The translations under genes and the position numbers were made by a program. Below, in pieces: positions 276 through 45,327 of a stretch of DNA of 64,000 nucleotides (its first letter is position 1; each line of letters starts with the position of its first letter). The stretch lies in contig CM119267.1 of assembly GCA_051294375.1 (NCBI GenBank), positions 553,523 through 617,522 of the forward strand, read 5' to 3'. This stretch comes from Paraspadella gotoi (lineage: Eukaryota; Animalia; Chaetognatha). The notes below the pieces were generated by a model. It was given only the letters and a program-made list of their open reading frames with translations. It was not told the origin of the DNA and did not search any database.

Positions 276-406
276 TTAATAATCATCGAGTTCCTCCTCG
301 TAGTTGACCATTCCTTCTTCGGTGCTGACATCTTGATACATTTGATATTCGGAGACAAGATCGATCATATTCGATTCCGCCTCGAAGAATTCTTGCTCGT
401 CCATTC
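276..406 (-). CDS. TUBB: Beta-tubulin exon 10 (C-terminal; absent from ORF track)
   Basis: The reverse strand reads ctacag|GA ATG GAC GAG CAA GAA TTC..., i.e. (G)[42 protein letters not shown]. It joins exon 9 (...GGG GAA G|gtgagt) in phase 1. Confidence 0.9.

Positions 407-45327: not shown

What the first reader, a model, noticed from the sequence alone, without database searches (positions are those of the whole stretch)
276..45327. One 45-kb beta-tubulin gene threads through a gene cluster and hosts 14 antisense protein-coding genes in its introns
Seen in sequence: ten minus-strand exons occur in four islands (45327-45191; 18646-18257; 8308-6212; 406-276), each in a gap between + strand genes. 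They are in the right order, cover the protein exactly once, and every junction has matching phase, including split codons AG|G, G|GT and G|GA across the three giant introns. The product is an uninterrupted 444-aa beta-tubulin. Intron 1 (26,544 nt) contains ABHD4, ASB3, PRDX5 x2, NME6, POLK, ANAPC7, CHST15-like, PRKRIP1, PASK and SIRT6. Intron 3 (9,948 nt) contains POLQ and COPS5, and intron 9 (5,805 nt) contains PPM1H. Established: beta-tubulin genes are usually compact, and nested genes are usually one or a few small guests per host. Here the guests are conserved multi-exon housekeeping genes. Inference: either one pre-mRNA is transcribed antisense across the whole cluster (and could repress it by transcriptional interference in the expressing tissue), or the mRNA is assembled from separate pieces by trans-splicing. 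Gene predictors would probably fragment this gene.
Basis: partly seen in the sequence, partly recalled or inferred. Interest (0 to 1): 0.95.

Follow-up and report, generated by a model that had tools for sequence, protein, structure and literature searches.

The report
Tubulin gene threaded through housekeeping cluster
A divergent beta-tubulin gene is spread over 45 kb in ten exons, with 14 intact housekeeping genes packed on the opposite strand inside three of its introns, likely an operon-like cluster; this reverses the usual pattern of a conserved host gene with a few small specialised guests.

Summary
Confirmed. Ten minus-strand exons join into a stop-free 444-aa beta-tubulin. Fourteen plus-strand genes with complete reading frames lie in introns 1, 3 and 9.

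The gene is transcribed and spliced. Contigs of one public run, identical to the window, skip intron 2 and join exon 3 to exon 4 across the 9,948-nt intron. Junctions 1 and 9 have only indirect support. Orthologues 87-91% identical exist in relatives. All four islands carry residues specific to this paralogue, so it is not a chimera.

- The guests are tightly spaced (7 of 13 stop-to-start gaps are 356 nt or less) and intron-poor.
- Five guests have a single coding exon.
- One guest is doubly nested.
- The 26.5-kb intron has a GC donor.

Best reading: one cis-spliced pre-mRNA runs antisense through an operon-like run of housekeeping genes, in an animal that may be a chaetognath (not proven). 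Trans-splicing of pieces is unlikely (about 0.08). Nested genes are common; this number of conserved guests in a divergent host is unusual.

The parts
45191..45327 (-). beta-tubulin exon 1 (ATG; codons 1-46), GC donor GAG|GCGAG; lies in the 602-nt gap between SIRT6 and EP400
   Evidence: 4 paralogue-specific residues shared with orthologues
18527..18646 (-). beta-tubulin exon 2
   Evidence: covered with 0 differences by spliced contig record 1 of run X1
18257..18393 (-). beta-tubulin exon 3
   Evidence: joined to exon 2 and to exon 4 in X1 contigs
8181..8308 (-). beta-tubulin exon 4
   Evidence: loose end of X1 record 2 matches 8275-8304
7906..7998 (-). beta-tubulin exon 5
7158..7387 (-). beta-tubulin exon 6
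   Evidence: 97% identical to P0165
6996..7093 (-). beta-tubulin exon 7
6425..6559 (-). beta-tubulin exon 8, GC donor GAG|GCGAG
6212..6337 (-). beta-tubulin exon 9
276..406 (-). beta-tubulin exon 10 with stop codon
   Evidence: 4 paralogue-specific residues
18647..45190 (-). giant intron 1, 26,544 nt, GC-AG, holds 11 genes
   Evidence: junction supported only indirectly
8309..18256 (-). giant intron 3, 9,948 nt, holds POLQ and COPS5
   Evidence: junction seen in X1 contig
407..6211 (-). giant intron 9, 5,805 nt, holds PPM1H
904..5302 (+). PPM1H-like PP2C phosphatase, 6 coding exons, 755 aa
8513..15694 (+). POLQ, 4 coding exons, 2234 aa
16022..17578 (+). COPS5, 3 coding exons, 368 aa
18868..20088 (+). 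ABHD4/5-like hydrolase, single coding exon, 406 aa
   Evidence: covered by X1 record 6
21000..23108 (+). ASB3-like ankyrin protein, 3 coding exons, 637 aa
23386..25440 (+). PRDX5-like copy a, 3 coding exons, GC donor in intron 1
25949..26542 (+). PRDX5-like copy b, 2 coding exons
26777..27364 (+). NME6-like nucleoside diphosphate kinase, single coding exon
27507..29798 (+). POLK, 2 coding exons, 733 aa
30024..36117 (+). ANAPC7, 4 coding exons; its intron 1 (30474-34453) holds the CHST15-like gene
31711..33141 (+). CHST15-like sulfotransferase, single coding exon, doubly nested (same strand as ANAPC7)
36474..37004 (+). PRKRIP1-like (DUF1168), single coding exon
37248..42217 (+). PASK, 4 coding exons (first intron ends uncertain)
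43662..44993 (+). SIRT6, single coding exon, 443 aa
45596..64000 (+). EP400/SRCAP-like gene (HSA, SNF2, helicase C); continues the plus-strand run beyond tubulin exon 1; likely start codon 268 nt from the tubulin ATG, head to head
   Evidence: start codon not verified

Best explanation
This is one intact, spliced beta-tubulin gene of a divergent paralogue class, likely transcribed as a single 45-kb pre-mRNA and cis-spliced, whose exons sit in the spacers of a plus-strand run of 15 housekeeping genes that likely works at least in part as an operon. Shown: the gene structure, splicing of introns 2 and 3, conservation of the protein, and the co-orientation, tight spacing and intron poverty of the guests. 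Inferred: (1) polymerase reads the minus strand through all 14 guests and the spliceosome removes introns of 26.5, 9.9 and 5.8 kb. (2) Several guests have no room for a promoter of their own and are released from polycistronic RNA by spliced-leader trans-splicing. (3) The cluster grew inside old tubulin introns, because an intron-poor gene copy landing on the plus strand needs no new promoter and puts its splice and polyadenylation signals on the strand the tubulin polymerase does not read. (4) Collisions are limited because host and guests peak in different cells or at different times.
For: Stop-free 444-aa product with matching phases. In run X1, record 1 (263 nt, 0 differences, depth 1016) skips intron 2. 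Record 2 (864 nt, depth 1074) leaves exon 3 into letters that match exon 4 at 8275-8304, their only match in the window. Record 2 has 834 nt before the junction against 806 nt for exons 4-9 spliced, so it runs 28 nt past exon 9. An eighth X1 record was not displayed. The counts make it at least 99% alike and only partly on the stretch. Bin arithmetic places it in the bin 18608-18670 at the 5' edge of exon 2, about 30 nt at depth about 770 (the other 9 bins checked add up exactly). That is what an exon 1-exon 2 contig would give. A 12-member cluster of orthologues, on contigs of 0.9-2.0 kb where given, is 87-91% identical; 7 of the 12 cover all ten exons. There are 29 residues shared with orthologues and nearly absent from 18 other tubulins, and they fall in all ten exons. 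Record 6 (2069 nt, 0 differences) runs from exon 2 into ABHD4, confirming that adjacency outside the assembly. All 15 neighbours are on the plus strand. Stop-to-ATG gaps are 3210, 327, 1289, 911, 277, 508, 234, 142, 225, 356, 243, 1444 and 602 nt. The guests have 22 introns in 26.7 kb of coding sequence (0.8 per kb) against 6.7 per kb in the tubulin. A T-rich AG lies within 160 nt upstream of the ATG in 8 of 15 genes against 12 of 85 control windows (p 0.002; rule chosen after seeing the sequences).
Against: The letters of junctions 1 and 9 were not seen. No spliced leader was seen on the ABHD4 contig, which runs unspliced through its upstream region. The first, matrix-based test for unpaired acceptors was negative (mean score 3.5 against 3.7 for shuffles). 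Six of 13 gaps exceed 500 nt and could hold promoters, and no T-rich acceptor was found for NME6, POLK or ANAPC7, which follow the shortest gaps. Antisense orientation is expected of nested genes anyway (71% in Drosophila, PMC3814207), so co-orientation alone does not show an operon. The minus strand of intron 1 is not depleted of AATAAA (28 against 19 on plus). The lineage is not identified, the run is unstranded contigs whose RNA status is the tool's guess, and cis versus trans is not decided by a spliced product.
Confidence: 0.6

Rival explanations
1. An ordinary, if extreme, host gene: the tubulin is cis-spliced as above, but each guest has its own short promoter in a gene-dense region and there is no operon.
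For: Nested genes are 5-12% of genes in many animals (PMC10282587, PMC8527503, passages). The matrix test for unpaired acceptors was negative. No leader was seen on the ABHD4 contig. Six of 13 gaps are over 500 nt.
Against: Seven of 13 gaps are 142-356 nt from stop to start codon and must also hold both UTRs. The run continues into EP400 outside the host. The post-hoc T-rich acceptor excess points the other way.
Confidence: 0.28
2. The tubulin mRNA is assembled by genic trans-splicing from two to four separately transcribed pieces, so no polymerase crosses the whole cluster.
For: The spliced product does not tell cis from trans. The minus strand of intron 1 carries 28 AATAAA and 45 GTRAG motifs that a through-going polymerase and spliceosome must ignore. 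A lineage with leader trans-splicing would have the machinery (inference).
Against: All exons are in order on one strand, with splice sites scoring like the guests' own. The two ends of each giant intron pair no better than shuffles (21, 32 and 93 of 100 shuffles pair as well or better). Exons 2-3 and exon 10 lie in narrow spacers with little room for promoters. Introns of 6-27 kb are ordinary in animals (own knowledge).
Confidence: 0.08
3. Exon 1 (or exon 10) belongs to another locus or is unused: an assembly join placed it here, or the mRNA starts with a leader spliced onto exon 2.
For: Junction 1 was not read, and the hidden contig at exon 2 could be a leader rather than exon 1. No whole genome was available to look for a second copy of exon 1. 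The 18-nt satellite at 23674-24954 inside intron 1 is a place where assemblies can break.
Against: Exons 1 and 10 each carry 4 residues specific to this paralogue and shared with full-length orthologues. Order and phase are exact. There is no N between 276 and 45327. The PRDX5a reading frame is intact on both sides of the satellite. The GC donor GAG|GCGAG recurs in 3 of 28 introns examined in the window.
Confidence: 0.04

Closest known systems
Nested (intronic) genes in Drosophila and mammals (Lee and Chang 2013, PMC3814207; PMC11694760)
   Same: Guests lie inside long introns and are mostly antisense (71% in fly); same-strand guests tend to be single-exon, as the CHST15-like gene is inside ANAPC7.
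   Different: There, hosts are conserved and broadly expressed and guests are narrow, fast-evolving and often testis-biased. Mammalian hosts have up to 3-4 guests at the 95th percentile, with extremes of 77 and 186 when all biotypes are counted. Here the host is the divergent paralogue and the 14 guests are protein-coding core genes whose coding sequence fills 59% of the host's span.
Nested and doubly nested genes of the ctenophore Hormiphora (PMC8527503) and the glass sponge Aphrocallistes (PMC10282587)
   Same: Many nested genes, double nesting and leader trans-splicing occur together in one genome.
   Different: Hormiphora has 2357 guests in 1654 hosts, and its figure example shows four guests. 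In the passages read, neither paper reports a co-oriented run of 11 guests in one intron.
Chaetognath operons (Paraspadella gotoi, PMC12460157; Spadella cephaloptera, PMC2481426)
   Same: Tightly spaced, co-oriented, broadly expressed genes; gaps under 250 bp define candidates; the longest reported holds nine genes.
   Different: The word 'nested' does not occur in the main text of PMC12460157 or in its three readable supplements; its gene table could not be read. Membership of this window in that phylum is not established.
C. elegans operon CEOP3416 (PMC1657053)
   Same: An operon and an opposite-strand gene share one locus.
   Different: There one antisense gene sits in an intron of an operon gene. 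Here the exons of one antisense gene are spread across four spacers of the run.
Divergent multi-exon beta-tubulins such as Drosophila betaTub97EF (10.1101/185827)
   Same: A conserved, divergent, multi-exon paralogue; the nearest named relative in the tree is a beetle tubulin.
   Different: Only 73% identical to that beetle protein; orthology to 97EF is not shown (fork support 92, under the tool's bar of 95, and no 97EF reference in the tree).

Membership tests
Beta-tubulin | Tubulin GTPase and C-terminal domains, MREI start, acidic tail | tested here: met
   sequence; orthologue P0165 carries PF00091 and PF03953 and its atlas neighbours are beta-tubulins. The usual T at position 143 is C here and in the orthologues.
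Host gene with nested genes | Guest coding sequence lies wholly within an intron of the host | tested here: met
   14 of 14 guests. UTRs are unknown; a contig runs from ABHD4 back onto exon 2, so some transcripts may overlap host exons.
Host gene with nested genes | Host exons on both sides of the guests are spliced together | tested here: met
   seen for intron 3 (POLQ, COPS5); indirect for introns 1 and 9
Host gene with nested genes | Host is transcribed as one continuous pre-mRNA | not testable with these tools
   needs stranded nascent or long RNA; only unstranded contigs were laid
Leader-resolved eukaryotic operon | Co-oriented genes with very short spacers | tested here: met
   15 of 15 genes on plus; 7 of 13 gaps 356 nt or less, 4 of 13 under 250 nt from stop to ATG
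Leader-resolved eukaryotic operon | Unpaired 3' splice site upstream of downstream genes | tested here: inconclusive
   matrix test negative; post-hoc T-rich rule 8 of 15 against 12 of 85
Leader-resolved eukaryotic operon | Spliced leader on mature mRNAs | tested here: inconclusive
   none visible on the one guest laid (ABHD4); contigs drop short branches, and 4 loose ends were not displayed
Leader-resolved eukaryotic operon | Polycistronic precursor from one promoter | not testable with these tools
   a contig across two genes shows no single transcript
Genic trans-splicing (mod(mdg4), Giardia split introns; recalled) | Exons on different strands, out of order or at distant loci | tested here: not met
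   ten exons in order on one strand
Genic trans-splicing (mod(mdg4), Giardia split introns; recalled) | Base pairing between intron halves | tested here: not met
   150 nt at each end of the three giant introns pair no better than shuffles
Chaetognatha (as host lineage) | Grouping with named chaetognath sequences or carrying their leader | tested here: inconclusive
   no named chaetognath among the hits; COPS5 groups (support 100) with five unnamed rows, apart from the arthropod, mollusc, annelid and deuterostome rows (quick tree)

The most novel reading that the evidence does not exclude
The plus-strand run is a polycistronic, leader-resolved transcription unit and the tubulin is a specialised gene woven through its spacers, so two long pre-mRNAs interleave over 45 kb. 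Switching on the tubulin in a differentiated cell type would sweep antisense through, and damp, 14 repair, cell-cycle and stress genes at once. Operons parked inside the introns of regulated genes would then be a general genome design in this lineage, missed by gene predictors.
Probability: 0.3. Interest if true: 0.82.

Novelty: new variant of a known kind. Interest (0 to 1): 0.64.

Why it matters
It inverts the usual host-guest relation and gives a natural test of transcriptional interference: one host crossing 14 conserved genes, where single-cell data should show exclusion if interference matters. If the run is an operon, it links two features so far studied apart, nesting and leader trans-splicing, and suggests how operons grow: new members enter the antisense strand of long introns without needing promoters. 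In practice, predictors that forbid nesting will split such hosts and undercount both genes and operon lengths.

Tried and rejected
- No whole genome was held, so I could not count other such hosts or look for a second exon 1.
- Only one stretch (18230-20110) was laid with reads, so junctions 1 and 9 were not read. No listed holder is on record as RNA. Run X2 (share 0.14) gave mostly short matches to other tubulins and was not used.
- The metagenome scan with the orthologue P0165 kept 80 of 532 stretches; none was an orthologue (best 78%), so synteny and dN/dS could not be computed, and the DNA of the orthologues was not obtained.
- The acceptor matrix test was negative. One of its 28 training introns (COPS5 intron 2) was entered one base off.
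- Rfam found nothing at gathering scores in the window, so no leader RNA gene of a known family is present.
- Polyadenylation motifs are not depleted on the minus strand, and intron-end pairing is at chance.
- Contig depths (tubulin about 1000, ABHD4 about 41) were not used to rank expression.
- Earlier scan notes: none for this genome, none by words, three unrelated tubulin notes.
- The careful COPS5 tree did not finish; the quick tree was used.
- Three papers on nested genes (Chen and Stein 2006, Kumar 2009, Assis 2008) were not held, so operons nested in introns of C. elegans may be in print unseen.

Full report
Observation. Joined, they give 1335 nt and a 444-aa beta-tubulin with a single terminal stop. 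The introns are 26544, 133, 9948, 182, 518, 64, 436, 87 and 5805 nt. All acceptors are AG. Introns 1 and 8 have the donor GAG|GCGAG, which also opens PRDX5a intron 1, so 3 of the 28 introns examined share it; the GC donor of the largest intron is a habit of this genome, not a flaw of the model. There is no N inside the gene and no other tubulin exon in the window. The 14 guests all give complete open models. Five names were confirmed against PDB chains, two against named homologues, and seven rest on Pfam domains. Their coding sequence totals 26.7 kb, 59% of the host's span.

Is the gene expressed and spliced? A search with 6200-8400 listed two runs, both kept as contigs and only guessed to be RNA. 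Laid on 18230-20110, run X1 matches the window without a difference on three displayed records. Record 1 skips intron 2. Record 2 overlaps the end of exon 3 and continues into letters whose only match in the window is exon 4 at 8275-8304, so the 9,948-nt intron holding POLQ and COPS5 is removed. Record 2 has 834 nt before that junction and exons 4-9 spliced account for 806, so it runs 28 nt further, most simply into exon 10; those letters were not shown. An eighth X1 record was counted but not displayed. The tallies make it at least 99% alike and only partly on the stretch. The depth table leaves an unexplained 23,166 depth-nucleotides only in the bin that holds the 5' edge of exon 2, while the other 9 bins checked close exactly. 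This fits a 30-nt overlap at depth about 770 that continues in foreign letters. Exon 1 is the likely partner; a leader is not excluded. Record 6 runs from exon 2 through the end of intron 1 into ABHD4, which confirms that adjacency outside the assembly but cannot say which strand or molecule it comes from.

Is it one gene? A search with exon 6 found P0165, 444 aa, whose cluster has 12 members, on contigs of 0.9-2.0 kb where given. They are 87-91% identical to the window's product, 7 of the 12 across all ten exons, whereas 18 other full-length tubulins reach at most 74%. Twenty-nine residues are shared by the window and its orthologues and found in at most 5% of the others; they fall in every exon, four in exon 1 and four in exon 10. 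The islands therefore belong to one paralogue that is conserved in relatives. For scale, COPS5 is 88-90% and ABHD4 53-60% identical to its closest unnamed hits, so the tubulin is under strong constraint. It is nonetheless a divergent class, with changes such as T143C next to the GTP site. Its cellular role is not shown.

The guests look like an operon. All 15 plus-strand genes, including EP400 beyond exon 1, face one way, and the only convincing minus-strand coding segments are tubulin exons. Stop-to-ATG gaps are 3210, 327, 1289, 911, 277, 508, 234, 142, 225, 356, 243, 1444 and 602 nt. Three of the longer gaps (3210, 1289 and 602 nt) are those that hold tubulin exons. The guests have 0.8 introns per kb against 6.7 in the host, and five have none in the coding region. 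The CHST15-like gene lies inside ANAPC7 intron 1 on the same strand, a doubly nested gene that leader trans-splicing could release (inference). Evidence for unpaired acceptors is mixed: a matrix trained on the window's introns found no excess, whereas a T-rich rule chosen afterwards found 8 of 15 against 12 of 85 control windows. No leader was seen on ABHD4. I put an operon for at least part of the run at about 0.6-0.65.

Lineage. In a quick tree, COPS5 groups with five unnamed sequences (support 100) apart from the arthropod, mollusc, annelid, nemertean and deuterostome rows (55 rows chosen from the 120 listed). The closest ABHD4 hits are likewise unnamed. Chaetognaths would fit: they have leader trans-splicing on about half of their genes and 18% of genes in operons enriched for broadly expressed genes (PMC12460157, section 10 read whole, other passages, three supplementary PDFs searched, the spreadsheet unreadable; PMC2481426, passages). 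No named chaetognath sequence was available, so this stays a lead, about 0.65.

Mechanism. Most likely a polymerase starting near or within the 5' end of EP400 reads the minus strand through the cluster, and normal cis-splicing removes the three giant introns. In favour are exon order, ordinary splice-site scores and no pairing of intron ends beyond shuffles. Against it, the minus strand is not cleared of AATAAA, and no result here shows the long precursor. The arrangement probably arose by gene copies entering old tubulin introns. Insertion into introns is the main origin of nested genes in Drosophila (PMC3814207 passages, PMC5174743 abstract). In a lineage with leaders, a plus-strand copy would need no promoter and would hide its processing signals from the host. 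This history is inferred, since no related genome was seen. Interference between host and guests is plausible from the Drosophila work (PMC5174743, abstract) but untested here.

Comparison and novelty. Nesting is common: 12.4% of genes in Aphrocallistes (PMC10282587, passages), and 2357 guests in 1654 hosts with 484 doubly nested in Hormiphora (PMC8527503, passages). Mammalian hosts have up to 3-4 guests at the 95th percentile, with extremes of 77 and 186 across all biotypes (PMC11694760, passages). In the fly, hosts are conserved and broad and guests are narrow and fast (PMC3814207, passages); this locus is the reverse. One worm operon spans an antisense gene in one of its introns (PMC1657053, passage). 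Searches combining nesting with operons or chaetognaths showed no report of an operon-like run inside a host's introns. Three key papers were not held and most subscription journals are not searched, so this is weak evidence of novelty. Also read in passages, with nothing bearing directly: PMC2330155, PMC7704054, 10.64898/2025.12.04.692336, 10.1101/2025.03.14.643333, 10.1101/185827.

Verdict. It is a new variant of a known kind: an extreme host with inverted roles, probably interleaved with an operon. Interest 0.64.

Noticed in passing
window 30474-34453 (+): The CHST15-like gene (31711-33141) sits inside ANAPC7 intron 1 on the same strand, itself inside tubulin intron 1: double nesting.
   Followed up: partly
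window 45190, 6424 (-) and 23577 (+): Three of 28 introns examined use a GC donor with the same context GAG|GCGAG, far more than the roughly 1% usual in animals (recalled).
   Followed up: partly
window 23674-24954: An 18-nt satellite of about 70 copies with many small indels fills most of PRDX5a intron 1.
   Followed up: no
window 47178-48037: A 435-nt exact duplication flanks the window's only gap (10 N at 47603-47612), probably an assembly overlap; it lies outside the tubulin gene, in an EP400 intron.
   Followed up: no
window 23386-26542 (+): Two PRDX5-like genes in tandem; they differ in intron number (2 and 1) and are clearly diverged in protein sequence.
   Followed up: no
window 45328-45595: Only 268 nt separate the tubulin ATG (minus) from the likely EP400 ATG (plus), and both have an AG after a T-rich stretch upstream; the tubulin's start of transcription may lie inside EP400.
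   Followed up: no
window 18619-20110 (X1 record 6): A 2069-nt contig links tubulin exon 2 to ABHD4 without a splice; it could be ABHD4 upstream RNA, unspliced tubulin intron 1 or DNA.
   Followed up: partly
window 18324-18394 (X1 records 3-5): Run X1 also holds contigs of other beta-tubulin paralogues, 83-94% alike over short stretches of exon 3.
   Followed up: no
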